Origin: a virus | Taxonomy: Duplodnaviria; Caudoviricetes | IMG/VR virus record: IMGVR_UViG_3300045257_000186 | Span: 1 to 53,836 of that record | Reading direction: 5' to 3' (one strand) | Length of the DNA stretch: 53,836 nucleotides | Shown here: positions 20,634 through 53,430 of the stretch, piece by piece | How positions within the stretch are numbered: the first letter of the stretch is position 1 | Layout of the letters: every line of letters begins with the position of its first letter | Program-made: the position numbers and the translations under genes | Notes under the pieces: generated by a model | What the model was told of the DNA's origin: nothing | Seen by the model: the letters and a program-made list of their open reading frames with translations, nothing else | Databases searched by the model: none

Positions 20634-22563
<1,930 letters not shown>

Positions 22564-23974: not shown

Positions 23975-24268
23975 ATGGAATTGCTCTGCATCATTTTCTT
24001 TCTCTGGCTGATTAGCTGCGCCTTTCCCTCTAGCGGCAGCGGCCACCATTTCGAGCCTATGATGGTTGTTGTGTTCATCGTTTGCGCAGCGGCGCTCGTT
24101 GGCTATGTAGCCATCGGTATTTACATTATGGCCGGCGTGGATTGGCTTACCGATAGCGGGTGGGTGGCTGTGCTCGCGGGAGCCGCATACTTCGTTGGAA
24201 CGATATGGTTGAATAAGTGGAACGCTGAAAGGCTGGATCGCCGAGATGAAGCGACGCGGCATAATTAA
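23975..24268 (+). CDS. membrane protein, possible holin
   Basis: Three hydrophobic segments, charged C-terminus, directly upstream of lysozyme; AGGAGG RBS region. Confidence 0.5.
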   Translation: MELLCIIFFLWLISCAFPSSGSGHHFEPMMVVVFIVCAAALVGYVAIGIYIMAGVDWLTDSGWVAVLAGAAYFVGTIWLNKWNAERLDRRDEATRHN

Positions 24269-24812
24269 ACGGCTCCGCGCGCTTGCGCCGATGACCGTCA
24301 GTCCGATCGGCGTCGAGAAGATCGTTCAGCGCGAGGGTGTCTACCTCCATGCCTATCAGGATACGGTGGGCGTTTGGACGATAGGGACCGGCCACACCTC
24401 GGCTGCGGGTCCGCCGCCGGTCTACCGGGGAATGACGATAACCGAGCAGCAGAATGAGCAAATCCTAGCGAACGACCTCAAACCGATTGTCGCGCAGCTT
24501 AACGCCACAATCCAGGTACCCTGCCTGCAAAACCAATTCGACGCCTTCGTATCGATCGTTTTCAACGTCGGCCCTAAATTCCTGCACTCGACTGCCATGC
24601 GGTTGTTCAATGCCGGCGACAATGCCGGTTGCGCCCAGGCGATCATGATGTGGCGGATTCCTCCGGAAATCATCGGACGGCGCAATACCGAGCGCATCCA
24701 GTTTTTGACGCCCTATCCGGTGGGTGCTAGAAGCGTACTTCGGCGTGGCAAGGTCAGGCAAAGGTTAGGCTCGGTTAGGCCTGGTGCGGCAAGGCGCGGC
24801 AAGGTGAGGTAA
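24246..24812 (+). CDS. endolysin, GH24 phage lysozyme (start may be 24291); C-terminal tail encoded by array D
   Basis: Catalytic E-x8-D-x5-T 'REGVYLHAYQDTVGVWTIGTGHT', 'QNQFDAFVSIVFNVG', 'RRNTER'. Confidence 0.9.
   Translation: MKRRGIIKRLRALAPMTVSPIGVEKIVQREGVYLHAYQDTVGVWTIGTGHTSAAGPPPVYRGMTITEQQNEQILANDLKPIVAQLNATIQVPCLQNQFDAFVSIVFNVGPKFLHSTAMRLFNAGDNAGCAQAIMMWRIPPEIIGRRNTERIQFLTPYPVGARSVLRRGKVRQRLGSVRPGAARRGKVR
24705..24733 (+). promoter_or_regulatory. sigma70-type promoter inside the lysozyme gene, pointing into GGYNN array D
   Basis: TTGACG-17 bp-TAGAAG, preceded by TGC; predicted start ~24740 at the first pentamer. Confidence 0.6.
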
Positions 24813-24817
24813 GGAAC
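24742..24817 (+). repeat. GGY-NN pentamer array D (putative guide RNA)
   Basis: GGCGT GGCAA GGTCA GGCAA(A) GGTTA GGCTC GGTTA GGCCT GGTGC GGCAA GGCGC GGCAA GGTGA GGTAA GGAAC: 14 GGY units plus terminal GGAAC. Confidence 0.9.
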
Positions 24818-29315: not shown

Positions 29316-30239
29316 TCAGCAAGTGACCCCGATGTTTGATGGATCGCATTTGCGCGTCCCGGTGCCGCTCACAGTCGACGGACCTGGGCCGCTGGTGCCA
29401 ATGCCGATCGGACAGTTCGCGATAATGCTCGATCCGGTAATCTCCACGGCAGACAACGCCAGCCACCGGCAATTCTGAGACAGGATCGGTGCGCCAATGA
29501 CGCCGCCGATGATCTTGGTCATGCTCCGCGCCGGGCCCACGTCGTTGATGTAAATCGAATTTAAGTACGGTCCGCTAAAATCGGTCTCATCAAAGCCATT
29601 CTCGAAGCACGTCGAGTTTGGCGTGATGGCGACATAGACGCCGTAGGCTACAGGATTGCCGTTGTCGATCTTGTCGCGGATATACCAATTGCCAGAGGTG
29701 GTTAAGAGGCCGCCGCCAGTGGTCCCGACTCCGGCGAGATTGGAATTGAATACGGTGCCGTCGCAGCCGTTGTTCTGCAACGCAAACCGGCCGCCGACGA
29801 TATTGACGCTATCGAAATGAGTAACCGCGTTGGGGCCTACGACGACGCAATCATTGGCAGCAAAGGCCGATTGGCTACATACCACTGAGATATTCGCTAT
29901 CTTCTCGTACTCGTTGCCGTTACCGGAGGGCTTAGGGTTGGCATTGAGCGCGGTAAAATCGCCGCTTGTTGTGATCTGCGCGCACGCCTCGTTCGCGGCA
30001 TCAACCGTTGTGGCTGTATATTGCTGCAAAGTCATCGACGTGCCGTAGTTGCCGCAGGGGAACCACAGCCGGCCGCCGCCGTTGTCGCGCATCCAATTAA
30101 ACTGGCATGTGATCGCGGGACTATCGTCGGTGCCGCTGCCGGCGGCGGCGGGGCAACCGTGGTCCCCGGATTTGACGTTGGTGCCCCCAGCAAGGGCGGG
30201 AGCCGCGGCAAGGCATAGCAAGATTGCGAAGCGGTTCAT
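29316..30239 (-). CDS. secreted pectin-lyase-like beta-helix protein
   Basis: Signal peptide; 'GTDDSPAI....GGGRLWFPCGNY' pectate_lyase_3-type start. Confidence 0.65.
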   Translation of the reverse strand: MNRFAILLCLAAAPALAGGTNVKSGDHGCPAAAGSGTDDSPAITCQFNWMRDNGGGRLWFPCGNYGTSMTLQQYTATTVDAANEACAQITTSGDFTALNANPKPSGNGNEYEKIANISVVCSQSAFAANDCVVVGPNAVTHFDSVNIVGGRFALQNNGCDGTVFNSNLAGVGTTGGGLLTTSGNWYIRDKIDNGNPVAYGVYVAITPNSTCFENGFDETDFSGPYLNSIYINDVGPARSMTKIIGGVIGAPILSQNCRWLALSAVEITGSSIIANCPIGIGTSGPGPSTVSGTGTRKCDPSNIGVTC

Positions 30240-31525
30240 TTCTTCAATTCTCTCACGCGCTCGTTTTTAATATCCATCGCGTCGTCCAAGTTCTCGAAGG
30301 TCACGCCGCAGCGGTCGCGAAGATTGCGATCGGCGCGCCAAGCCTCTTCGAGGGCATCGACGGTAGTGACGAAAGCGAGCCACTTTCTCAGATAGGCGTG
30401 ATACTCGGCCGCGTTCCGCGGATTGAAAGCTTCCGGCTCGGTCATGGTTGAACTTGAGCTAATGACGGTACTTCCCGCGCCGCCACCACTTGCGGCCGGT
30501 GCCGGCGCGTTCACAGAGACATTCGTTACTTTTCCATGCTCAATGGTCGCCGTCGCATTGCCCGACGCTACCGTAATCTTGTCACTTTCCGGATATAGCG
30601 CCGGCGCCTCACCGGCATGTTTCTTAGTCTTTGGCCGACCGCGAACCTTTTTCGGCTTAACCTCGCCGGTTTGCTGATCGACCGTTTCCTCGTCACCCAA
30701 CGGGTTCGCCACCTTGTCGAACGCTCCCGCCGTCATACGGCGCGGGTCGGTTAATTCCTCCACCGTCACGCTGCCGTCCCGCAGCGCGCCGTACATGCCG
30801 CGCAACACCGGCAGATGTTCCAAGGTCAGGTCAGGCTCGCCTTTCAGCCCCAGAAGCGCGTAAATCTGGTCGGGCTTGATGCCGAATTGCGCGAAGGCTT
30901 TAATTGCTTTCCCTTTCCGCTCGGCAAAGGTTTCCTCGGTACCGCGGACAATTTGCAATGCCTTCTCATAGATCGGGAACCAAATAGCCCTCGGCACGGC
31001 GTTGAGGATCGCATTGCGCCGGGCGATCGAGGCCGCGGCCATGCCCGTAACCATAATCATGTCGTCGGAGAAGATTCGGCCGTACTTATCGACGATGCGC
31101 CGCTGTACCGGCAGCACTGTCTTGCGGTTGGTTTCGAGATCATGGAAGCCGCCCTCGGCTATCACAACCTTTTCATGGCGGTCGATGTGAACGATGCGAG
31201 CGCCGTCAGAGCAATTGCCCCAACACGACGCGATGATATTGGCGAAGCCGATGCTGGCACCGATGATCGGTTTGCCGCCACGCGGCAGGCTGTAAATGCA
31301 ATTCTCGGCCGCCTGTTCGTTGTAGCAGGCCAAGGTCTCGATTTTCTTAATGACCGTATCGAGTACCCGCGGATAGCGATGGGCTGTGGCAATCGCCTCG
31401 TCTATCTCCGCACGCGCCAAATCGACGGCGAGGCTTTGCTCGCCGAGCACTGTTGCCGGCAAATTAACAGCCTCCAGCTTGTGTTCATTTTGCATTTTCA
31501 TCTGCTCATTTCCATTGCCAGTCAT
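30236..31525 (-). CDS. conserved phage protein, putative single-strand annealing/recombination partner of the exonuclease
   Basis: 'RAEID..IATAHRYPR', 'YSLPRGGKPIIG', 'WGN'; AAAGGAG RBS; function inferred only from its position in the RecE-like operon. Confidence 0.55.
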   Translation of the reverse strand: MTGNGNEQMKMQNEHKLEAVNLPATVLGEQSLAVDLARAEIDEAIATAHRYPRVLDTVIKKIETLACYNEQAAENCIYSLPRGGKPIIGASIGFANIIASCWGNCSDGARIVHIDRHEKVVIAEGGFHDLETNRKTVLPVQRRIVDKYGRIFSDDMIMVTGMAAASIARRNAILNAVPRAIWFPIYEKALQIVRGTEETFAERKGKAIKAFAQFGIKPDQIYALLGLKGEPDLTLEHLPVLRGMYGALRDGSVTVEELTDPRRMTAGAFDKVANPLGDEETVDQQTGEVKPKKVRGRPKTKKHAGEAPALYPESDKITVASGNATATIEHGKVTNVSVNAPAPAASGGGAGSTVISSSSTMTEPEAFNPRNAAEYHAYLRKWLAFVTTVDALEEAWRADRNLRDRCGVTFENLDDAMDIKNERVRELKK

Positions 31526-31550
31526 CGATTGCTCCTTTCTTCGTCATATC

Positions 31551-31750
31551 TTTCCCTACCTCACCACGCCTTACCGGACCATGCCGGACCAAGCCACGCC
31601 CGACCCTGCCTAGCCGAGGCTTTCCCTACCTTGCCACACCATGCCAAGCCCAACCTGACCTTACCGGACCAGACCCCGCACTACCTTGCCGTGCCTGACC
31701 GTGCCGCGCCCTGCCACGCCATGCCTTGCCCCGCCCTGCCGCACCGGGCC
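31551..31750 (-). repeat. GGY-NN pentamer array A (three tandem putative guide units)
   Basis: 40 in-phase pentamers, 36 matching GGY, starting right after the RAMP gene stop; units end in GGTAG or GGTAG GGAAA. Confidence 0.92.
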
Positions 31751-32326
31751 TCAATCTCTCATGCGGTCCCACCGAACAACGCGAAATGTCCCGAAGGGTC
31801 CGCGCCGTTGCGGCCGAAAATCCCCAATTCCCTGCTGTTCACCGGCCTCAGTTAATAGTTGATGCACAAATTCCTCCGGTAGTAACTTATCGTTTATCGT
31901 CAGAGTGAATTGCGCAGACCAGACGTCAAATCGCGGGCGATGCCTCATTATTCTGCCCTTTGTCGCCGGGATTGACACCGGCCTACTATCAACTTCGAAA
32001 TCTGCCGCCAAGGTTTTGCCGTCGCCGTTCCGAACCGGAATATCGATCTCTTTGACCCTAACCGCAGCCGGCACGACATATTTGGCGGACTTCCGCGAGC
32101 CGCGTAATTTGTGTGCACCGCCCGCTTCTGTGATTGAGCTGGCGATCCAAGTACCGGGGAAATAAAAACCGTTTCCGTTTCTATAAACCACCTTCTCCGC
32201 TTGCTCCCGCGGTGTTCCACGATTTTGAATGATCGTCCGCGTGGTCGTATCGACTTCTGATCCTTCCTCAAACCGATGTTGCAGCATCGGCGTAATACCA
32301 ACAATTGCGCAATCAATCGTAATCAT
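31751..32326 (-). CDS. stand-alone RAMP/Cas7-like RNA-binding protein (Vipr-like effector)
   Basis: 'IVGITPMLQH' first strand, 'FYFPGTWI..SI..AG', 'RPRFDVWSAQFTL', Gly-rich loop 'AGEQQGIGDFRPQRRGPFGTFRV'; AAGGAGG RBS; flanked by pentamer arrays. Confidence 0.8.
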   Translation of the reverse strand: MITIDCAIVGITPMLQHRFEEGSEVDTTTRTIIQNRGTPREQAEKVVYRNGNGFYFPGTWIASSITEAGGAHKLRGSRKSAKYVVPAAVRVKEIDIPVRNGDGKTLAADFEVDSRPVSIPATKGRIMRHRPRFDVWSAQFTLTINDKLLPEEFVHQLLTEAGEQQGIGDFRPQRRGPFGTFRVVRWDRMRD

Positions 32327-32343
32327 AGTGTCCTCCTTCTCTG

Positions 32344-32418
32344 TTACCTGACCTCACCTCGCCATACCCAACCTCGCCTTGCCATGCCTCACCAAGCCTC
32401 ACCTCGCCGGGCCTCGCC
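32344..32418 (-). repeat. GGY-NN pentamer array B (putative guide RNA)
   Basis: 15/15 GGY pentamers, from the exonuclease stop to the RAMP RBS, ending GGTCA GGTAA. Confidence 0.92.
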
Positions 32419-33513
32419 TCAATTACGACCCCACCATGCCGGCATTTCCGCCAAATCCAATTCTTCTGGGGGGTCCAAGATCAGCCACATCTCGTTGGGG
32501 CCGAATTTGTCCATGAATGCGCGATAATTATCCGCCGCCTGATCGAGTGCGCGGCGCGCAACCTCGAGGATCGGGTTTGCAGGACTCAGGATGCGCGACC
32601 ACGTGACCGGTGCGCCCTCGCTCTGGAAAAACACCCATTGCCAGCCGAATTCTTTAGCCGCGGCGCATTTCTTTAAGAAAGCGAAAAGATCGATCGCGTT
32701 CGGAGGATTAAACCGCCCTTCGGCCATGAATTGCGGAATCATCGCCCGCGCCTCCATGTAGTGCGCCGCCTGTATTTCCATCCGACGTTGGGCAATGGCA
32801 ATCCGGCAGGCGGCCGGGAAAGCGAGTTCTCTGGTGTTGGCGATGCTTTTGAGATCGCCGATACCGCGCGGTTTAAGATAGTCGAGCCGCGCCTTGCGCC
32901 GCAGCCCGTCACGGGTCCAAAAGATCGAGATCTCGGGAAGCCCGCCGGTGAAGGCAGGCGCGAGCTTGGGGTTCTTGCTAATCATGGCCGACGCGATTAC
33001 GACGCGATCATAAGTCTCGGAGGGCAGTACCTCTTTCCCCATCTTTTCAGCTTCGGCATTGATCCGCTTGGTCTCTGCCGCCTTCTCAGACGACGGTGCG
33101 CCTTCCATCCAATCGCGCCCCCGCATATACCGCGCACTAAATGCCGCCTCGCCCTCCAGCACCATTTTGTGCATCGCCCGCCCGCGGAGCGTGGCTGGCG
33201 TGTCCCTGTCCTTCGGCCGCTGCGGGTTCATCGGGCTTTCCCACCAGAACGTAGCTGCGTTATCGACCAGCTTCCTCATGTCGGAACTACCCAAGGCGCT
33301 GTCAGCCCGATAAATCTCTTCGTCTAAATCCAGGTAAATGCCGTCCACGAGCGGCTCGACGTTGCCACCCATAGACGTGCCCGTAACCGCCGCCACTTCT
33401 TTCATTACATCTCCTATGTCTCCAGGTGATCTACCGTAGGGCGGCGGATAAGGGCCCGGCTCACCCATTAAATCACGGAACGCTTTGTTCAACCGCTCTT
33501 GGTCAATGGTCAT
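32419..33513 (-). CDS. RecE/exonuclease VIII-like PD-(D/E)XK nuclease
   Basis: 'IY....LGSSDMRKL', 'GRAMHKMVLE', 'EISIFW..KARLDYL..IGDLKS', 'QAAHY'; ATGA overlap with upstream gene. Confidence 0.8.
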   Translation of the reverse strand: MTIDQERLNKAFRDLMGEPGPYPPPYGRSPGDIGDVMKEVAAVTGTSMGGNVEPLVDGIYLDLDEEIYRADSALGSSDMRKLVDNAATFWWESPMNPQRPKDRDTPATLRGRAMHKMVLEGEAAFSARYMRGRDWMEGAPSSEKAAETKRINAEAEKMGKEVLPSETYDRVVIASAMISKNPKLAPAFTGGLPEISIFWTRDGLRRKARLDYLKPRGIGDLKSIANTRELAFPAACRIAIAQRRMEIQAAHYMEARAMIPQFMAEGRFNPPNAIDLFAFLKKCAAAKEFGWQWVFFQSEGAPVTWSRILSPANPILEVARRALDQAADNYRAFMDKFGPNEMWLILDPPEELDLAEMPAWWGRN

Positions 33514-33719
33514 GCCGTGGCCGCCTTTACCGCCCACATGGCGGCATCTTCGTAAGCGTCCTGCGCTAAATCGATTATGTGGAGTTTCACACTTGTCGCA
33601 CCCCCTCTCATTCCCTCGCACAAATCGATCAATTCAGCCGATTTCTGCTTAATCTGGCTCACGAGTGAATTGTCAGACGGATTGAATTTAACGCGAACGC
33701 GGTCCTCGCCGATGGTCAT
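33510..33719 (-). CDS. Acb2/Tad1-like helical-hairpin protein (putative nucleotide-signal sponge, anti-defence)
   Basis: 'GEDRVRVKFNPS..V.QIK..AELID', 'LAQDAYEDAAMWAVKAAT'; AGGAG RBS. Confidence 0.6.
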   Translation of the reverse strand: MTIGEDRVRVKFNPSDNSLVSQIKQKSAELIDLCEGMRGGATSVKLHIIDLAQDAYEDAAMWAVKAATA

Positions 33720-33737
33720 GTCCTGCTCCTAGAATGA

Positions 33738-33814
33738 TTGCCTATAATTATTCTTACGCCTCGCAATATTATTTGACAAGCGCCTATCTGGAAATTATAG
33801 GCAAAGTGTTGACA
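33738..33814. promoter_or_regulatory. divergent promoter region with 12-bp perfect inverted repeat
   Basis: TTGCCTATAATT (33738-49) and AATTATAGGCAA (33793-804); TTGACA(33773)-17-TATAGG on +; second TTGACA at 33809. Confidence 0.65.
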
Positions 33815-33867
33815 CCCTCTTTCCGGACCTATTTTGTGGCGTGCCCAAAGAAAAGGAGGGGGTGCAG

Positions 33868-34452
33868 ATGCAGAATGTTTGGCTCGAAAGCCAGATTGAA
33901 ACCATGAAACAAATGTTCAAAGATGGGTTTTCTCACGCACAAATTGGCCGATCGGTCGGCCGATCCCGCAATGCGGTTATCGGCAAAGTACACCGCATGG
34001 GGCTGCACATCGAGGGCCAAGAGCAGGGATACCGGCCGAAACCCCAGGGCGGCCGCGTCAGTTCCAAGTCCGCGATCAAACGACCGCGCAGCAAAGGGCG
34101 GCCGCAAGTCGGACGTTGCGAGCCGCTTCCTGAGACCCCTACCGCCCCGGATTCCAAATTCATCTCGCTCATCGAGCTTAGCCGGGGAACGTGCCATTTC
34201 CCGTATGGCGACCCGCAGGAGCCCGATTTTAGCTATTGTGGTGCGCCGGTCTGGGGTAAATCATCGTACTGCGCTTCTCACGCGCGGCTTTGTTACACCA
34301 CGGCGGCCGAGCGCCGGGCCGAGCGGGCGCAATACCAGGAGGAACCGACATGGGACGCAAGCCGAAAACTGATCCGCAAGCGCCGGGCGCGGACGCCGAG
34401 AGGCCGGGCGCAGGGCACAACCAGCTCTCCGACGACGACCTCCGAGAGTTAG
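33868..34452 (+). CDS. gcrA: GcrA-family cell-cycle transcription regulator
   Basis: 'W..QI..MKQMFKDGFSHAQIG..SRNAVIGKVHRMGL' and 'LIEL..TCHFPYGDP..DFSYCG..SYCASH'. Confidence 0.9.
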   Translation: MQNVWLESQIETMKQMFKDGFSHAQIGRSVGRSRNAVIGKVHRMGLHIEGQEQGYRPKPQGGRVSSKSAIKRPRSKGRPQVGRCEPLPETPTAPDSKFISLIELSRGTCHFPYGDPQEPDFSYCGAPVWGKSSYCASHARLCYTTAAERRAERAQYQEEPTWDASRKLIRKRRARTPRGRAQGTTSSPTTTSES

Positions 34453-34898
34453 CTTTCCAGCACAAGCAGCGATACATCACGGCGTTAGCGCGGAAAAAGA
34501 CCGCCGATGCGGATTTTAAGAACACCTGCAAGGCTGCGATGGCTGAAATGGGCCGGAGCGGCGTCGCCATCATTAAACACATGATCGCGTTGGACGACCC
34601 GGAGGGCGAGGCAGAGGTGCGTGCGGAGTTGATGCAGTACGCCAGTGCGTTGCGGTGGGCCAGCGTGCCGTTAGGGACACAGATCGAGTTTGCCCTGACC
34701 GAGCCAGATGAGACGCCATCCGTCGATCGCGCCTTTGACGAGGGTAAGCAGACCAGCATGGCCAATAGGCCAGCTAAACCTCCGTATAACCCCGAGAGTC
34801 CGCAATATAGGGCGTTCATGGACGGATACTCGGATCATCAGGCTACACTGGCCCAGCGCCTTGGGCATGGGAACGGCGACCAGCCGCGACCGGAATAA
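34350..34898 (+). CDS. GapR (DUF2312)-like nucleoid/DNA-binding protein with C-terminal extension
   Basis: 'GHN' motif, 'ADADFK..CK.A....G', AGGAGG RBS. Confidence 0.5.
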   Translation: MGRKPKTDPQAPGADAERPGAGHNQLSDDDLRELAFQHKQRYITALARKKTADADFKNTCKAAMAEMGRSGVAIIKHMIALDDPEGEAEVRAELMQYASALRWASVPLGTQIEFALTEPDETPSVDRAFDEGKQTSMANRPAKPPYNPESPQYRAFMDGYSDHQATLAQRLGHGNGDQPRPE

Positions 34899-34968
34899 GG
34901 ACACACCATGCTTCCCGCGCCGCAAATGGTGATGCTAGAGCCGTACTGAGCGGGATAGGGAGCGGCAA

Positions 34969-35250
34969 ATGATAATCCTCGACGTGCAACCTGTCGGCCA
35001 CAGTCAATTTACCGGCTCGGTCAATGGCGAGGCTCTTGTCGGTCCTACGCCAACTCCCTTCTTTGACGCCGCAAGACGCCTAATGGCGCGGGGTGAGCCC
35101 GCCGATGAGACTTTAGTGATGCGGCATCCCACAGGCACCCTCTCAATTAAAGCTGCCCTTGGCGATGCGGCGCGGCTTGGCGTGCGGGAAGGCAACGGAC
35201 AATTACGGATTGTCGCGTGGGAACCGTACAATGTTCATCGCGGCATTTGA
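34969..35250 (+). CDS. hypothetical protein
   Basis: 93 aa ORF, GGGAG RBS. Confidence 0.55.
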   Translation: MIILDVQPVGHSQFTGSVNGEALVGPTPTPFFDAARRLMARGEPADETLVMRHPTGTLSIKAALGDAARLGVREGNGQLRIVAWEPYNVHRGI

Positions 35251-35767
35251 CCTCGCTACCGCGACCGGCGTGTGCCACGGCACTGTCGGCGGAGTGCCGC
35301 ATGTATGGACGTGGTTTTTAAGCGATAGCGAAGGCGGCCGTCCGGTCAAGCTGGCCTACCTGCGCCGCCTACTCGACAAGTATTTCGAGTCCACCATAAT
35401 TGACGCGGTTTATTACGAGGCGCCGATGCCGCTGCGGGCGATGATGGAACGCGGCGCCAGCGAAGATGTGATTGCACTGCTGCGCGGTTCCATTGGGGTG
35501 CTCGAGAGTTGCGCCGCCCATGCTGGTATCCAGACGATTGAGGCGGTGTCGGTGCAGCGCGCTCGGACCGCGCTGATCGGCCGGCAAACCCGATCCAAGA
35601 TTAAGGGTGCGGGCAAGGAAGCGGTGCAAAGGGTTGCGAAAATGATGGGCGTTGCGGTTACGGACGACCACCAAGCCGACGCTTATGCGTGCTGGTTTTA
35701 CGCCTGCGCCAAGAACAACCCGCGACTAGCCCATATTTCGACGCCATTATTCGCGCGGCAAACTTAG
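35231..35767 (+). CDS. RuvC-like Holliday junction resolvase
   Basis: 'IAAFDLATATG', 'VYYEAP', 'DDHQADA' acidic catalytic motifs. Confidence 0.8.
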   Translation: MFIAAFDLATATGVCHGTVGGVPHVWTWFLSDSEGGRPVKLAYLRRLLDKYFESTIIDAVYYEAPMPLRAMMERGASEDVIALLRGSIGVLESCAAHAGIQTIEAVSVQRARTALIGRQTRSKIKGAGKEAVQRVAKMMGVAVTDDHQADAYACWFYACAKNNPRLAHISTPLFARQT

Positions 35768-35846
35768 TTCCTTACCTTACCGTGCCACACCTCGCCACGC
35801 CCCGCCATGCCATACCCGACCGCGCCGTACCCTACCATGCCACGCC
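35767..35846 (-). repeat. GGY-NN pentamer array C (putative guide RNA)
   Basis: 15/15 GGY pentamers (35772-35846) plus terminal GGAAC; convergent on the RuvC-like stop. Confidence 0.92.
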
Positions 35847-35912
35847 TTTTGGATAAGTCAGCCGCCGAAGGAAAGTTGCGCTACAATCCGCAGCGCTATT
35901 TGCAGGGAGGAC

Positions 35913-36101
35913 ATGATGGACGAAGGTGAGGCTTTAGACGAGGCGCGGGACATGATGAACGATCTCCGCGGCATTGTCGAACTAGCCCGGCAAGTCCGCG
36001 AGGCGCAGAAAAAGTATTTCAAGACACGCGACCGGAACGATCTGGTGGCCTCAAAGCAGATCGAGCGCCGGTTGGACGATGCGCTGTCAGGGCAACGATA
36101 G
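35913..36101 (+). CDS. hypothetical protein
   Basis: GGAGG RBS; 'VREAQKKYFKTR..DL.ASK..E..LD'. Confidence 0.6.
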   Translation: MMDEGEALDEARDMMNDLRGIVELARQVREAQKKYFKTRDRNDLVASKQIERRLDDALSGQR

Positions 36102-36244
36102 TTGCGCCGCCGCATACTCACCCCGCGCGGTCTCGATCTCGCGGTCCTCTTCCGCTTCCAGCACCCAATCCCGTATTAGCCAGATACAGCGCCAGCACGC
36201 GCAGCCGACGCCGTGGGGGAAGTACCGGCGCGGTGCGGTTAGCT

Positions 36245-46074: not shown

Positions 46075-46284
46075 GTGGCCGCACCCGTCATTCCGAACAC
46101 TGGCCCGCAGACCGTCACCGTCCTCACCGGCAACGAATTGATCTATTTCGAGTACGGCTCGCAGGACTTGCAGCGGATTAAGGCGTCGGACCTAGCTACC
46201 TATATCGCGACATTCCTTGCCGGGGCGACCGGCGCAACGGGGGCCACCGGTGCTACGGGTCCAGCCGGACCGACAGGCGCGTAA
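46075..46284 (+). CDS. minimal collagen-like fibre (shared N-terminal module + short GXT tract)
   Basis: Near-duplicate of the start of the next gene. Confidence 0.65.
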   Translation: MAAPVIPNTGPQTVTVLTGNELIYFEYGSQDLQRIKASDLATYIATFLAGATGATGATGATGPAGPTGA

Positions 46285-47292
46285 ATGGTTGCGCCGATCA
46301 TTCCGAATATCGGGCCGCGAACGCTCACTACGCTCACCGGTAATGAACTCGTCTATCTCGAATATGGCTCTCAGGAGCTTCGGCGCATGAAGATATCGGA
46401 TTTGGCGGCTTATATTTTTAGTTGTCGAGCCGGGCCGACGGGGGCAACAGGCGCGACGGGGGCAACAGGCGCAACTGGTCCCGCCGCATATACCGTCAAG
46501 GCGACCCGCTTCGATGCAACCGGCACGGGGCCGAACGGCACCGGCGGCGACAACGGGACCATGATAGATTTGGCCTCCGACGCAGCGGTTGCAACGAGCG
46601 CGGCAACGGCAAGTTGGGCAGGCTGGATGAAGCTAGGAACTGCGCCCAAAAACGGTACCCAACTCTTCACCAGCGGCGCTATTTTTACCAATTCGGCTGG
46701 CACGTTTTATCTCTCGAGCACCACCTTCAACGTCGTCGCCAACCCGACAGACCTTTACGACAGCTTTAACCAGAATAGCCCGGCCGCGTACTACCCCGCC
46801 GCGTCGCAAGCTGGTGTGCTATCGGAAAATACTTGGTGCTGGCTGGCCGGCAATGCCGACGTCGGCCATGCCGCAGGAGCGCGGACCAATCTGCAATATC
46901 TGGGCGATACCGCCGTTGTGATGACCAGTGCGTTTTCCGGCAATACGGAGACCGGCTCTGCGTTCGTTATTCCGTTCGCCGGCGGCAAAACCGAAATCTC
47001 GGCCTCCTTGGGAGCGGTCATTGATTTTGCCGAGTTGTTCCTGTGGCCCGGTCAGTTGATCGATTGGAGCCAAGTTAGCAACCGGCGCCTGCTCTTCGGC
47101 GCCAACGGCAAGCCGGTCAACCCAGCTGGAGCGATCTCAGCATTTGGTGCGCCTGCGGTTTTCCTCAGCGGCGGTGCAGCGAGTTTCGTCACAAACCAAG
47201 GCAACGGTGGCACGTTCTCACTTTATAAGAACCTTAATACTCCTGCCCTTGGCGGCGTATTATCCGACGCGCCAACCAGCCCGAGCGATTAA
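46285..47292 (+). CDS. fibre protein with short collagen linker and LamG-like head
   Basis: 'PIIPNIGP' module, GAT repeats, 'ASWAGWMK..WCWL..DFAEL'. Confidence 0.7.
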   Translation: MVAPIIPNIGPRTLTTLTGNELVYLEYGSQELRRMKISDLAAYIFSCRAGPTGATGATGATGATGPAAYTVKATRFDATGTGPNGTGGDNGTMIDLASDAAVATSAATASWAGWMKLGTAPKNGTQLFTSGAIFTNSAGTFYLSSTTFNVVANPTDLYDSFNQNSPAAYYPAASQAGVLSENTWCWLAGNADVGHAAGARTNLQYLGDTAVVMTSAFSGNTETGSAFVIPFAGGKTEISASLGAVIDFAELFLWPGQLIDWSQVSNRRLLFGANGKPVNPAGAISAFGAPAVFLSGGAASFVTNQGNGGTFSLYKNLNTPALGGVLSDAPTSPSD

Positions 47293-47294
47293 CG

Positions 47295-47651
47295 ATGACG
47301 GCGAGCCGCGGCAACCAGATCGTCGACAAGCTACGCGGCGACGAACTGTTCTCGTGCGACAATGACGCCAAGAAGATCACGGCGCGCGATCTGCGCGCCT
47401 ATCTCGGCGGCGACCGCGCCGCACCGGCGATCCGGCCGGAAGGCGGCGCTCATCCGGTCCGGGCCAGCGAGTTCCCCAACGCCGAACACGCCATGCAGGA
47501 CGCCGACAGGATTTTAGGCTTGCAGGACGGGCTGAACGTCAATTTCTCCAAGGAACAAATCACCCGTCTTATTTTCCCGCCCACATTTGATCCGCACGTT
47601 CCCGGCGCGCTGTGGAACGACAACGGCACCCCGAAAATCTCCGAGGGATAA
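47295..47651 (+). CDS. hypothetical virion protein, paralogue of 20630-20974
   Basis: See paralogue; C-terminal '[14 protein letters not shown]' motif. Confidence 0.7.
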
Positions 47652-47652
47652 C

Positions 47653-48405
47653 GTGGCGCAAGGTCCCGTCGACCGGATCGACACGCTCTACGGCGATGAG
47701 TTCTTCGTCGTCAGCGGCGATGGCTACGACCGCAAGCAAATAACCGCCGCCAACGTCAAACGCTTCCTCCGCGGCGGCGCAACCGGTGCCACCGGGCCGA
47801 TGGGGCCGACCGGAGCTACCGCAGGCAATACCGGCGCAACAGGCACGAAAGGCGATCCCGGCAAGCCAGGCAATACCGGCGCTGCGGGGGCGACCGGTGC
47901 AGGTGAGCCAGGGCCGGCTGGCGCGACCGGTCACACAGGACCCAAGGGGGCCACAGGTCCGACAGGTCCGCACGGATCGGGCGAAACCGGGGCGATTGGC
48001 CCGCAAGGCAACACCGGCAACACCGGACCGCCTGGGCCGCCCGGTCGTGGCGATCCCGGCCCTAAGGGTGCGATCGGGATCGCAGGAGTGCCGGGATACG
48101 ATGGTGCAACCGGCGCAACCGGACCCGCCGGCACTACCGGGAATACCGGCGCACCCGGACCAGCAGGGTCCGCCGCGACAGGATCAGCCGGCAACACAGG
48201 AGCCACGGGACCAAAAGGGGACATCGGTTCGGGCGCGACAGGATCGACTGGCGCAACTGGCGTTGCGGGCAACACGGGCAACACCGGCCCGCCCGGCCCG
48301 CAGGGCGCGGCATGGGAAGGCCCGATCATCCCGCCCACATTTGATCCGCACATTCCCGGCGCGCTATGGAATAATGGCGGCGTCCCGATGATTTCAGCAG
48401 GCTAA
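47653..48405 (+). CDS. collagen-like protein
   Basis: GXY repeats including GPP/GDP; C-terminal '[14 protein letters not shown]'. Confidence 0.75.
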
Positions 48406-48407
48406 CG

Positions 48408-49949
48408 ATGCCCCCGCCCGTCATCCCGAACCCAGGTGTAGAGATCGTTACCGACCTGTTCGGCGATGAACTGTTCATCTTCGAGTCTGGGTCGCAGCAG
48501 ATCAAAGAGGTCACCGCCGCCAATCTCAAACGCTTCTGTGGCGGCGGCGGTACCGGCGACGGCAATACCGGAGCGACAGGGGCCACAGGCGCAACGGGAG
48601 CTACAGGCAACGACGGCAATACCGGGGCGACCGGGTTAACTGGCGTAAACGGCGTCACGGGAGCAACAGGCGCGGCTGGGACTACCGGCAGCACGGGTTC
48701 GACTGGGCCAACGGGCGCTGCCGGCACGACAGGAAGCACGGGGCCGACCGGGGCCGCCGGCCAAACCGGATCGACCGGCCCAACAGGCGCACAAGGTAAT
48801 ACTGGTAATACCGGGACCGCTGGCGCGAATGGCAATACCGGTGCCACCGGACCAACCGGTGCGGCAGGGCAGACCGGATCGACGGGTCCGACTGGCGCGC
48901 AAGGCAATACGGGGAACACTGGCGCTGCTGGCACCACCGGTTCGACTGGTTCGACAGGCCCCACGGGAGCCCAAGGAAATACGGGTAACACGGGTGGAAC
49001 AGGAGGCACCGGAGTCACCGGCAATACCGGTGGGACGGGTGGGACTGGCGCCACGGGAAATACCGGTGCCGCACAACCTTTCACTTGGAACTACTCGACG
49101 ACGACCACTATGGCGTCGCCCGGTACCGGGTTCTTCCGTGCCGACAACGCGACCTGGGCCAGCGTCGCTAATCTCGCGGTCATGGACACCACTGCGGACA
49201 CCGGCAATCCAGACGTTCACGCTTATCTGGAAGCCATCCCGGTCGGGTCAACGCTCTTCATCAAGGACATCACGACTCTTGGCGCGATCGCCATCTTTAC
49301 CGTCACCACCGTAACCCCGCAGGGCTCGCATACTTGGACCCAATACGCCGTCACCTTCGTCAGCCAAACCGGCACATTCACCAATAACGACAATTGCCAG
49401 ATTTCGTTTGCCGGGCCGAAGGGAAATACCGGAAACACGGGCGGGACCGGAGGAACCGGAGCGACTGGGAATACCGGGGCCGCCGGTACGACCGGCCCGA
49501 CGGGGGCTCAGGGTAATACGGGTGGCACAGGCGGAACTGGACAAACCGGGGCAGCGGGGACCACGGGACCGACCGGTGCGCAAGGAAACACGGGAAATAC
49601 GGGAGGAACCGGGGGCACCGGTGGGACTGGTGGCACTGGTGCTACCGGCGCCGGCTACGCCGTCGGCGCAACGGTCGATTTCAAGTTTTCCACCAAGATC
49701 AACGGCGTGCCGACAAGCCTGACTGGTTCTGCCGCGATCAGCGTGTACCAGGGCGGCAATTCTACGCCGTTCACGACAGGCGTTAGCTTGACGACGGACT
49801 ACAATAGCACCGTGGGATTGAATGACGTTTCGATCGGAGCGACCGGTGCTAATTATACCGCAGGCCATGACTACGACGTGGTGATTACCACGGGGACGGT
49901 CGGTGGTATAAGTCAGGTTGGGACAGTGGTGGGGCACTTTACGCTATGA
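48408..49949 (+). CDS. collagen-like fibre protein with two GXT tracts and two globular domains
   Basis: 'PVIPNPG' module, GXT repeats; C-terminal domain paralogous to 51797-52138. Confidence 0.8.
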
Positions 49950-50875
49950 GCAATGTCAGCTTTCCGCTAACCGACGTCCAAGTCTTTACCAGCGGCTCAG
50001 GCAATTGGACTAAGCCGCAATGGGCGACGCTGGTGCAGGCGATCTGTGTTGGTGCGGGCGGTTCCGGCGGAGGGGGAACCTTTACCGCTACTGGAGCTAG
50101 TGGCACCGGCGGCGGCGGCGGCGGCGGCGCCGCGGCGCCGCTCATCGCGTTTTTCCAACCGTCGGACCTTGGGTCCACCGAAGCTTATGCTGTCGGTGCC
50201 GGCGCAATTGGCGGCACTGGAAGCACGGCCGGCACAGGCGCCTCGGGGACCAACGGCGGAAATTCGACTTTTGGCGGCACCACGGTAGCAATCCAGACAG
50301 CCTATGGCGGCGGCGGCGGCGGCGGCGGCACTATCGTCAGCGGCAGTGTTGGCGGCGGCGGCGCTGGCCTCGCTGGTGCCGGCTCGCAAGGTCAAATTTC
50401 CGCCGGAGGCGCCTCCGGTGCCAACGGCGGCGTTGGCGGTTCTGGAAACGGTAGTAGCGCTGGCACCAACATCGGCGGCGGCGGCGGTGGTAGCGTCAGC
50501 AGCGTGTCGCTTCTCGTAGTCACTCCATCGCCGGTTTTCACGGGGGCCGGCGGCGGTGGTGCCGGTGGTCCGAAAACGACAGTGCCGGCTTATGGTGCCG
50601 GCGGCACCGGAGCATCGATCAATAGTGTGTTGCCGGGTGGAGCGGGGGCGGCAGCTTCGACCGGAACGGTTGGCGGCCCCGGCCTCCCTGGACCGTTCGG
50701 AACTCCTGGCTCCGGGGGCGGCGGCGGAGGCGCGAGCGCAACTGTAGCCGGCAATGGCGGCGCGGGCGGTTATCCCGGCGGCGGCGGCGGCGGCGGCGGC
50801 TCGTCGATCACGACAGGAACTTCGGGGAATGGCGGTGCCGGAGCCAATGGCATTGTCGTTGTTATTTCGACATGA
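49946..50875 (+). CDS. glycine-rich fibre-associated protein
   Basis: '[22 protein letters not shown]', 'GNSTFG..AYGGGGG', 'GANGIVVV'. Confidence 0.75.
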
Positions 50876-51796
50876 CCAACGCCGTTATTTTCCCCCGCAG
50901 CCACCTCGATAAATTCACGACCGGAACTGCTCAATCCTGGTCAAAAGTGAATTGGGCCAAAACCGTCAGGATCATTATGATCGGCGGCGGAGGTGCGGGC
51001 GGCGGCGGTCTTAGGAGCGGTGCAACAGGGAGTGGCGGCGGCGGCGGCGGCGGCGGTCTATTCCTCGACCGCACGTTTGCCGCGAGCCAATTGGGGACTA
51101 CCGAGACTTACACGGTTGGGGCCGCGGTTGTCGGCGGGGCGGGCGCTACCGGCGACACGCTGCCAGGAAACCAAGGTGCAACCGGCAGCTCAACGACTTT
51201 CACTATCGCCGGCCTCGGCATCACCATGACCGCCTACGGCGGCGGAGCCGGCGCGGGGGGCCAAGTAGGAGCAATCTCTGGCGGAGGTGGAGGCGCTGGG
51301 CGTGCCGGCGCAGGTGGCAGTGCCGTGACGTCGACGCAAGGCACAGCCGGTGCAGACGGTGGCGCTACAGGCGCGGTCGGCGGGGGTCCCAATCTCGACT
51401 TTAACGGCGGAGCCGGTGGGTGCAGCGGTCTCAATAGTGCCGCCGCGCCTACACAAGTTGGGCCTGTGGTTCGCGGCGGCGGCGGCGGCGGGGCTGGGTG
51501 TGGCAAAGGAACCGCCACGAATGGCACCGGCGCCACCGGCAACATTAGCCGCGACCAAGCAGGAGGCCTGCCCGGCGCCGCGGGTGTCAATGGCGGCACG
51601 GGAAAGCCGGGGTTTGGCTATCCCGGCAGCGGCGGCGGCGGTGGGGGTTCTGCCTCTGCGGCCGGCGGAACCGCCGGTGCTGGCGGCGACGGCGGCATCC
51701 CTGGCGGCGGCGGCGGCGGAGCCGGCGCAGGCGGCACAGGACATACCGGCGGGGCCGGTGGCACCGGAGCGAGGGGCGAGATTTGGGTTATCCAGT

Positions 51797-51804
<8 letters not shown>
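50872..51804 (+). CDS. glycine-rich fibre-associated protein, paralogue of previous gene
   Basis: Same architecture, 'MIGGGGAGG', 'GARGEIWV'. Confidence 0.75.

Positions 51805-53430
<1,626 letters not shown>

What the first reader, a model, noticed from the sequence alone, without database searches (positions are those of the whole stretch)
35624..35846. Array C decodes (NN-skip-NN) to a diverged allele of the adjacent RuvC-like gene
Seen: NN of array C read 5'-3' is GT AT AG AC GC CG AT AT GG GT GA GT AC AA AA. Codon positions 1-2 of the RuvC-like gene at 35624-35668 are GT CA AG GT GC AA AT AT GG GT GC GT AC GA GA. That is 9/15 dinucleotides and 21/30 bases identical when every third (wobble) base is skipped. 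The decoded peptide V[IM]RTARMMGV[ED]VT[NK][NK] aligns with the gene's own VQRVAKMMGVAVTDD, with some conservative changes such as K/R. My rough binomial estimate at equal base frequencies is ~5e-8 per register. Inference: the guide recognises the homologous gene of a related phage through a wobble-insensitive gapped code, and the resident allele escapes by mismatch.
Basis: partly seen in the sequence, partly recalled or inferred. Interest (0 to 1): 0.95.

Follow-up and report, generated by a model that had tools for sequence, protein, structure and literature searches.

The report
Phage VIPR guide matching resolvase gene
A soil phage carries a recently described RNA-guided silencing system (VIPR), and one of its guide RNAs spells, in the system's skip-every-third-base code, a stretch of the resolvase gene family whose own copy sits right next to it, probably to silence that gene in rival phages.

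Summary
Read on the minus strand, array C (35767-35846) is 16 GGYNN units. Its first 15 NN pairs match codon positions 1-2 at 35624-35668 in 21 of 30 bases. This is the single best of 107,580 registers in the window; the next best scores 18.

Alone the match is marginal: shuffles reach it in 2-4% (15 units), 5% (13 units) or 25% (16 units) of trials.

Independent support:
- The same in-frame site of the RuvC-like gene is the unique top hit in 4 of 7 homologue loci, up to 24/32.
- Where homologues differ from the resident allele at resident-mismatch positions, they carry the guide's base in 4/4, 4/4, 4/6 and 4/6 cases.

The code is not new. It is the published VIPR "1-nt skip" rule (three bioRxiv preprints, 2026). 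The window encodes a Vipr protein at 31751..32326(-), whose family profile hits PDB "SUSP1 Vipr protein" at E=1e-10. That gene is flanked by four further arrays.

Not found:
- any target at the published >=80% NN match
- expression data
- targets for the other five arrays

Verdict: a new member of a known kind, interpretation partly supported. The guide sitting beside the mismatched resident allele is the one unusual feature.

The parts
35767..35846 (-). Array C: 16 GGYNN units, a dispersed vrRNA gene. It is on the same strand as vipr but antisense to both flanking genes. Its last unit, GGAAC, overlaps the RuvC-like stop codon by 1 nt.
35624..35671 (+). Sixteen codons of the resident RuvC-like gene (VQRVAKMMGVAVTDDH) whose positions 1-2 match the guide NN. 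Scores: 19/26 (13 units), 21/30 (15 units), 21/32 (16 units). This is the sub-threshold 'self' site.
35231..35767 (+). RuvC-like Holliday-junction resolvase gene, 178 aa
   Evidence: PHROG 159 E=7.1e-12; 17 homologues aligned, invariant E63 and D150, near-invariant D7
31751..32326 (-). vipr: 191-aa RAMP-fold protein
   Evidence: Profile A3 vs PDB 36pp_D 'SUSP1 Vipr protein' E=1e-10, residues 1-183. AF2 model pLDDT 86. Foldseek top hits are chains of type III Csm/Cmr and type VII effector complexes, prob 1.0.
32344..32418 (-). Array B: 15 units. It fills the gap between the exonuclease gene and vipr.
31681..31750 (-). Array A1: 14 units, starting directly after the vipr stop codon
31621..31675 (-). 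Array A2: 11 units, ending in GGAAA
31551..31615 (-). Array A3: 13 units, ending in GGAAA, about 25 nt upstream of the start of gene 30236..31525
24763..24817 (+). Array D: 11 units ending GGTAA GGAAC like array C. It lies in the lysis region, on the strand opposite to vipr.

Best explanation
Array C is a dispersed guide-RNA gene (vrRNA) of this phage's VIPR system.

Shown:
- The window encodes a Vipr homologue flanked by GGYNN arrays.
- Array C has the same unit structure and the same terminal units as the others.
- Read with one skipped base per unit, its NN dinucleotides spell codon positions 1-2 of a conserved stretch (consensus roughly V-M/I-R-T-A-K/R-M-M/L-G-V-x-V) of the RuvC-like resolvase family, in frame.

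Inferred from the published SUSP1 and P. fulva work:
- One Vipr protomer binds each GGY and presents the NN pairs.
- The filament then binds double-stranded DNA of a rival phage whose RuvC-like allele matches at >=80% of NN positions and blocks its transcription.
- The resident allele (66-73%) is not bound.

Also inferred: because the guide abuts the resident allele, guide and protected allele are inherited together.
For: 1. vipr. The family profile hits 'SUSP1 Vipr protein' (36pp_D) at E=1e-10 over residues 1-183, including the H17 strand and the G-rich GxGDxRP loop. The model's fold matches CRISPR backbone RAMPs.

2. Arrays. All 80 units have GG at positions 1-2. Position 3 is C in 41, T in 35 and A in 4. 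In relatives, 78 of 80 Vipr loci have arrays within 1.5 kb, and 343 of 344 arrays share vipr's strand.

3. In-window match. 35624 is the top of 107,580 registers. With other spacings, array C's best scores (13 units) are 16 at period 2 and 17 at period 4, both at unrelated sites, against 19 at period 3.

4. Homologues. The homologous in-frame site is the unique best hit in L013 (21/32), L014 (24/32), L015 (22/32) and L019 (20/32), that is 4 of 7 homologue loci.
   - In 1.06 Mb of fetched loci, 24/32 was reached by 0 of 100 shuffles.
   - In 234 kb of four whole homologue-bearing phage records, it was reached by 0 of 200 shuffles.

5. Direction of the differences. At resident-mismatch positions where a homologue differs from the resident allele, it has the guide's base in 4/4, 4/4, 4/6 and 4/6 cases over 13 units (1/3 expected). 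Among the 10 closest proteins, unit 2 (AT) is compatible in 8, unit 4 (AC) in 7, unit 11 (GA) in 3 and unit 6 (CG) in 1.

6. Literature. The published rule is 1-nt skip, skip at the wobble position, either strand, >=80% for targets and no self hit >=80%. Solo vrRNAs whose self-match is lower than their non-self match are already reported.
Against: - No allele with >=80% NN match was found. The best real DNA is 24/32 = 75% (20/26 = 77% over 13 units). The best case inferred from protein alone is 21/26 = 81% (P0004 cluster and P0010).
- Exact sub-pattern scans of IMG/VR hit 8 loci, none in a RuvC homologue, and GTDB genomes gave none.
- The in-window match alone has p = 0.02-0.25, depending on how many units count.
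- The homologue sites are not independent of the resident site, because they share ancestry.
- The three most distant homologue loci (L016-L018) show nothing (15-16/32).
- The other five arrays have no match anywhere I looked.
- In relatives, arrays do not tend to resemble nearby genes: 3 of 128 at p<=0.05 against 6.4 expected.
- Array C is antisense to its neighbours, with only one weak promoter-like site upstream.
- There is no conserved 3' tail like that of SUSP1.
Confidence: 0.68

Rival explanations
1. Array C is a genuine vrRNA, but its likeness to the RuvC-like gene is coincidence. Its real target lies elsewhere and is unsampled.
For: - Window-wide shuffle p is only 0.02-0.05 (13-15 units) and 0.25 (16 units).
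- No >=80% RuvC allele was found, and 0 of 8 pattern hits lie in RuvC homologues.
- An unrelated gene family in AT-rich phages reaches 23/26 once 18 of those bases are forced to match.
Against: - The top hit lies 99-222 nt from the array and in frame.
- Homologues match better than the resident allele, and they do so at the resident's mismatch positions.
- 24/32 was never reached by shuffles in 1.06 Mb or in 234 kb.
- The AT-rich hits (L100-L106) were selected by the pattern itself, and their free positions match 5 of 8.
Confidence: 0.14
2. Array C regulates the phage's own RuvC-like gene. It would act either by weak Vipr binding at the 66-73% site or simply as an antisense transcript running into the gene's 3' end.
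For: - The array abuts the gene, overlapping the stop codon by 1 nt, and is antisense to it.
- Units 7-13 match the resident allele in 13 of 14 bases.
- The cryo-EM preprint reports assembly proceeding 3' to 5' along the vrRNA (passages read).
Against: - The published systems show no self hits >=80%, and silencing was lost when NN pairing was perturbed.
- The three 3'-most units match the resident allele in only 2 of 6 bases.
- The guide is nearer to other alleles than to the resident one.
Confidence: 0.08
3. Array C is a decayed or silent relic of a guide. It is no longer expressed or no longer has a living target.
For: - It lies 3.4 kb from vipr in a convergent region with only a weak promoter-like site.
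- No target >=80% was found.
- In 80 relatives only 2 loci have arrays more than 1.5 kb from vipr.
Against: - All 16 units keep GG, and 15 of 16 keep Y at position 3.
- The terminal units GGTAA GGAAC are identical to those of array D. A relic would be expected to degrade.
Confidence: 0.08

Closest known systems
VIPR systems (Vipr protein + vrRNA), SUSP1 and P. fulva type II; bioRxiv 10.64898/2026.04.26.720920 and 10.64898/2026.04.26.720927
   Same: - A roughly 20-kDa RAMP-fold protein, with sequence-profile homology to SUSP1 Vipr.
- Arrays of 11-16 GGY/NN units, one upstream of vipr and three downstream.
- NN read with one skipped base that falls on the codon wobble position.
- Phage-borne.
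- No self match >=80%.
   Different: - The Vipr clade is distant (E=1e-10 only at profile level).
- There is no conserved 3' tail or pseudoknot. A1, A2 and A3 are separated by only 5 nt, and a short conserved end (GGYRA GGTAR GGAAM) takes its place.
- No recognisable vap partner: none of 11 neighbouring genes is conserved beside vipr, with hits in 0-1 of 80 relatives.
- Two arrays lie 3.4 and 7 kb from vipr.
- The host is probably an alphaproteobacterium; this is inferred from the GcrA gene and rests on recall.
Solo/orphan vrRNAs of SUSP1-family phages and F5 satellites; bioRxiv 10.64898/2026.10.15.759431 (outline and sections 8, 17 and 26 read)
   Same: - A vrRNA standing apart from vipr.
- A predicted target in relatives.
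- A self-match score lower than the non-self score, read as avoidance of autoimmunity.
   Different: - Those solo vrRNAs sit in vipr-null phages or satellites and target vipr, vrRNAs, satellites or host REP decoys.
- Here the phage keeps vipr.
- The predicted target is a resolvase gene, and the guide abuts the resident homologue of that gene.
Class 1 CRISPR backbone RAMPs (Cas7/Csm3) with crRNA
   Same: RAMP fold. Protomers are spaced periodically along the guide, with bases periodically excluded from pairing.
   Different: There are no CRISPR repeats, no cas genes and no spacer acquisition genes in the window. The period is 5 nt with only 2 informative bases. The published mode of action is silencing rather than cleavage.
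Virus-borne mini-CRISPR arrays aimed at related viruses (recalled from memory, no call)
   Same: A virus-encoded guide directed at a conserved gene of close relatives, with the carrier protected by mismatches.
   Different: A different guide chemistry and a different effector. This is recalled only and was not checked here.

Membership tests
VIPR system | Vipr protein: small RAMP homologue related to the described Viprs | tested here: met
   Profile of 40 family members vs PDB: 36pp_D 'SUSP1 Vipr protein', E=1e-10, query 1-183 vs chain 1-187. Foldseek: 81 PDB chains at E<=0.001. All chains listed are from type III Csm/Cmr and type VII complexes, including S. epidermidis Csm3 5yjd_B.
VIPR system | RAMP hallmarks: glycine-rich loop and thumb | tested here: inconclusive
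   The G-rich loop aligns with SUSP1 (consensus aGeqqGiGDfRP vs AGNLCGVGDWRP), and H17 is near-invariant. The thumb was not examined separately in the model.
VIPR system | vrRNA arrays of 9-16 tandem GGY/NN pentanucleotides next to vipr, GGY conserved and NN variable | tested here: met
   Six arrays of 11-16 units. GG in 80/80 units; position 3 is C in 41, T in 35, A in 4. All 16 NN dinucleotides occur. B lies upstream of vipr and A1-A3 downstream.
VIPR system | Conserved structured 3' tail after the repeat tract (pseudoknot in the SUSP1 clade) | tested here: not met
   The sequences 3' of the six arrays share nothing by eye, and A1/A2/A3 are 5 nt apart. Only the last units are conserved. The paper states that array architectures vary between its seven types, so this speaks against type II, not against VIPR.
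VIPR system | Accessory vap gene beside vipr | tested here: inconclusive
   The flanking exonuclease VIII-like gene and the 429-aa gene are found in 0 and 1 of 80 relatives' loci. No neighbour family is universal. Type assignment needs the paper's supplements, which are closed.
VIPR system | Target read with the 1-nt skip rule, skip on the codon wobble position | tested here: met
   Array C scores best at period 3 (19/26 at 35624). Periods 2 and 4 give 16 and 17, at unrelated sites. The hit is in frame 0 in the window and in 4 homologue loci. The match is below the target threshold, however.
VIPR system | Natural target with >=80% NN match | tested here: not met
   Best real DNA is 24/32 (L014). 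Protein-derived best case is 21/26. Exact scans. My searches could not tolerate mismatches across whole collections.
VIPR system | No self-target >=80% | tested here: met
   The highest self match of any array is array C at 21/30 = 70%.
VIPR system | vrRNA expressed and bound by Vipr; binding to dsDNA | not testable with these tools
   No test could be run with the tools at hand (see Tried and rejected).

The most novel reading that the evidence does not exclude
Guide and resident allele form a linked pair. The vrRNA that silences the RuvC-like resolvase of rival phages is welded to the 3' end of a resident allele that carries two double-base changes exactly at guide-contact codons: Q for M/I at unit 2 and V for T at unit 4.

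Any recombinant that gains the guide therefore also gains the protected allele. This would be an RNA-guided analogue of a homing-endonuclease or toxin-antidote cassette that can spread through a phage population.

A bolder form is that such adjacency is a footprint of how new vrRNA guides are born, from the locus they later police.
Probability: 0.18. Interest if true: 0.7.

Novelty: new member of a known kind. Interest (0 to 1): 0.4.

Why it matters
VIPR was described only in 2026, and only in enterobacterial and Pseudomonas systems.

This window shows a distant Vipr clade in a soil phage, with tail-less arrays. At least one of its guides can be tied, by the same skip-one code, to a named gene family, a Holliday-junction resolvase. 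That suggests the code holds far from the model systems.

It also gives a concrete, testable prey gene, with natural near-target alleles (self, L014-type, P0004-type) that could be used to measure mismatch tolerance.

The guide sitting beside the resident allele is not mentioned in the parts of the three preprints that I read. If it is adaptive, it would add a linkage logic to inter-phage conflict.

Tried and rejected
Ideas held before the literature search and then dropped once Vipr was identified: TRAP-like ring-protein RNA sites, Rho rut tracts on the C-rich strand, two-tier G-quadruplexes, ribosome standby sites, and DNA iterons for an RHH-type repressor.

Rfam at gathering thresholds gave 0 matches. 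There are no tRNA genes.

Relatives of the RuvC-like protein:
- Single-protein scan of IMG/VR: none.
- Alignment A1 in IMG/VR: 6 loci.
- Alignment A2 in JGI metagenomes: 1 locus.
- Alignment A2 in GTDB genomes: none.
- INPHARED phages by tblastn: none.

Exact gapped-pattern scans:
- Array C, units 4-13 with unit 6 free: 7 IMG/VR loci. Four are one structural-like gene of AT-rich phages (23/26), plus three others. None is a RuvC homologue.
- Array C, units 1-5 plus 7-10: 1 locus, in a 33% GC contig and not a RuvC homologue.
- Array C, 20-base pattern in GTDB genomes: 0.
- Array B: 1 hit whose flanking units do not match, judged chance.
- Arrays A1 and A3: 0 each.

Other arrays:
- Against the window: p = 0.24-1.0.
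- Against 1.06 Mb of loci: nothing. The exception was D at 18/22 in an intergenic spot of L020 (p=0.04), judged chance.
- Against four whole phage records: nothing.

Broader tests:
- General tendency of relatives' arrays to resemble nearby genes: 3 of 128 at p<=0.05 against 6.4 expected.
- Cross-targeting among the fetched loci at >=85%: 1 real hit against 3 shuffled hits.
- The five homologue-bearing phage records have no vipr and no strict six-unit array. Three of the five are incomplete.
- Cluster members of the ten closest RuvC-like proteins add no better allele.

No RNA holder was listed for 31400-36200. The only run is a soil DNA run that may be the source.

Supplements of the VIPR preprints are closed. 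Their tables of 664 loci, types and predicted targets may already hold this clade or these targets.

Full report
**What is there**

The window is a whole 53.8-kb IMG/VR virus record. It holds six runs of 5-nt units with the form GGYNN:
- D, 24763-24817 (+), 11 units
- A3, 31551-31615 (-), 13 units
- A2, 31621-31675 (-), 11 units
- A1, 31681-31750 (-), 14 units
- B, 32344-32418 (-), 15 units
- C, 35767-35846 (-), 16 units

All 80 units have GG at positions 1-2. Position 3 is C in 41, T in 35 and A in 4, and the four GGA units are the last units of A2, A3, C and D. The NN positions use all 16 dinucleotides.

B, A1, A2 and A3 fill the gaps around one 191-aa gene (31751..32326, minus strand) inside a leftward early operon. 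The upstream gene is exonuclease VIII-like (PHROG 412), and a 429-aa gene lies downstream.

Array C sits 3.4 kb away, between two plus-strand genes. Its last unit overlaps the stop codon of a RuvC-like resolvase gene (35231..35767; PHROG 159, E=7e-12) by one base.

**Check of the observation**

I scored every register of both strands. 35624 is the single best of 107,580, with the next best at 18.

Shuffling the order of the units and rescanning the real window gives a maximum at least as high in:
- 3.9% of 1500 trials (15 units); 2.3% when units are drawn from the pool of all arrays
- 4.9% of 1000 trials for the first 13 units, 19/26
- 25% of 300 trials for all 16 units, 21/32

The last three units of the arrays are semi-conserved (GGYRA GGTAR GGAAM), so they may be a handle rather than guide. 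That favours the 13- or 15-unit reading, but it is my inference.

Other spacings give lower scores at unrelated sites: 16 at period 2 and 17 at period 4. Reversed unit order gives 18. On the window alone the match is suggestive, not proven.

**Independent evidence from relatives**

The RuvC-like protein has 17 homologues in the 5.8-billion-protein collection. I could fetch DNA for seven homologue loci.

In four of them the homologous, in-frame site is again the unique best hit of array C in the whole locus:
- L013, 21/32
- L014, 24/32
- L015, 22/32
- L019, 20/32

The three most distant loci (L016-L018) show nothing, at 15-16/32.

Among 1.06 Mb of fetched loci, 24/32 was reached by 0 of 100 shuffles. 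Among four whole homologue-bearing phage records (234 kb), it was reached by 0 of 200.

These sites share ancestry with the resident one, so the sharper test is conditional. I took positions where the resident allele mismatches the guide and a homologue differs from the resident allele. There the homologue carries the guide's base in 4 of 4 (L013), 4 of 4 (L014), 4 of 6 (L015) and 4 of 6 (L019) cases over 13 units, against 1/3 expected.

At protein level, among the ten closest homologues:
- unit 2 (AT: I/M) is compatible in 8
- unit 4 (AC: T) in 7
- unit 11 (GA: D/E) in 3
- unit 6 (CG: R) in 1

The resident Q at unit 2 occurs in none of the other aligned sequences; the resident V at unit 4 recurs only in L014. 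So the guide looks like another allele of this family, nearer to its consensus than the resident gene is. I take the homology as real.

**What it is**

A literature search on pentanucleotide repeats found the answer. VIPR systems were described in 2026: a small RAMP protein (Vipr) and vrRNAs of 9-16 GGY/NN units. The NN pairs recognise double-stranded DNA with one skipped base per unit, usually the codon wobble base, on either strand and without a PAM. Natural targets are called at >=80% NN match, and no self hits reach that level. (10.64898/2026.04.26.720920: outline, Results, Discussion and four Methods sections read.)

The cryo-EM companion reports one protomer per unit and assembly from the 3' end (10.64898/2026.04.26.720927: outline and passages read).

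A third preprint reports solo vrRNAs whose self-match is lower than their match to rivals (10.64898/2026.10.15.759431: outline and sections 8, 17 and 26 read).

The 191-aa protein here belongs to a large family: 1430 proteins at E<=0.001, of which the best 120 were listed.
- A profile of 40 of the listed members hits PDB chain 36pp_D, 'SUSP1 Vipr protein', at E=1e-10 over its whole length.
- An AlphaFold model (mean pLDDT 86) matches chains of type III Csm/Cmr and type VII CRISPR effector complexes at probability 1.0 and TM about 0.55.
- Of 80 IMG/VR loci encoding relatives, 78 have GGYNN arrays within 1.5 kb, and 343 of 344 arrays share the gene's strand.

The window therefore holds a VIPR system, and array C is one of its guide genes.

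**How this member differs**

- There is no conserved tail after the arrays. A1, A2 and A3 are only 5 nt apart, so the SUSP1-type pseudoknot tail is absent.
- None of 11 neighbouring window genes is conserved next to vipr in the 80 relatives, with hits in 0-1 loci each. No neighbour family is universal, so I cannot name a vap gene or a type. The type tables are in supplements I could not open.
- Arrays far from vipr are rare: 2 of 80 relatives have any more than 1.5 kb away within the fetched flanks.

**What is not shown**

- No allele reaches the published 80%. The best real DNA is 75% (24/32), or 77% over 13 units. The best case inferable from protein sequence alone is 81% (21/26), for the P0004 cluster (seen on 27 and 44 contigs) and P0010.
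Eight exact sub-pattern hits in IMG/VR lie in unrelated genes, mostly of AT-rich phages, and GTDB genomes gave none. These scans need exact matches over 18-20 bases, so they can miss 80-90% targets.
- The five other arrays found no target in the window, in 1.06 Mb of relatives, in four whole phage records, or (for B, A1 and A3) in exact scans.
- The 'guide resembles a neighbouring gene' pattern is not general in relatives: 3 of 128 arrays at p<=0.05.
- Array C's transcription is unknown. Only one weak promoter-like site lies upstream on its strand.
- The phages with the closest RuvC alleles that I could inspect carry no vipr (0 of 5 records, three of them incomplete). That fits a prey role but proves nothing.

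**Verdict**

But the code and the idea of self-avoidance by mismatch are already in print.

This is a new member of a known kind, from a distant clade. Its target gene family is plausible and named, but no confirmed target has been found.

The guide abutting the resident, mismatched allele is the one feature I did not find described. I rate its being adaptive at about 0.18.

Noticed in passing
window 33510-33719 (-): A 69-aa ORF with an Acb2/Tad1 hairpin domain (Pfam PF24729, E=3.7e-8). It is a candidate anti-CBASS/Thoeris sponge gene at the head of the operon that holds vipr.
   Followed up: no
window 33841-34452 (+): A GcrA-family regulator (PF07750, E=5.8e-33). It suggests an alphaproteobacterial host; the host link rests on recall.
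   Followed up: no
window 24763-24817 (+), ORF 24246..24812: Array D lies on the strand opposite to vipr; in relatives only 1 of 344 arrays does so. It is read through by the ORF 24246..24812, which was not searched against any family library. It ends 4 nt before the GTG of the next gene. About three further units with a 1-nt slip lie just upstream.
   Followed up: partly
L018 5967-6001: A seven-unit GGNNN run abuts the start of a distant RuvC-like homologue, in a record with no vipr hit (the record is 51% complete). This is a second array next to a gene of this family.
   Followed up: partly
window arrays A2, A3, C, D; loci L020-L099: The only GGA units in the window are the last units of four arrays. 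In relatives GGA units are enriched in the last three units: 53 of 741 against 37 of 2030. This may be an end-of-guide mark in this clade.
   Followed up: partly
L021 (IMG/VR record of 111.9 kb): A Vipr relative with 29 arrays of >=6 units (up to 47 units) spread over about 10 kb among genes; 15 of them lie more than 1.5 kb from vipr. This is a far larger guide load than in the window.
   Followed up: no
window 21690-22145 and 46200-53100: Long period-9/18/27 repeats of the Gly-X-Y coding type, probably collagen-like tail-fibre genes.
   Followed up: no
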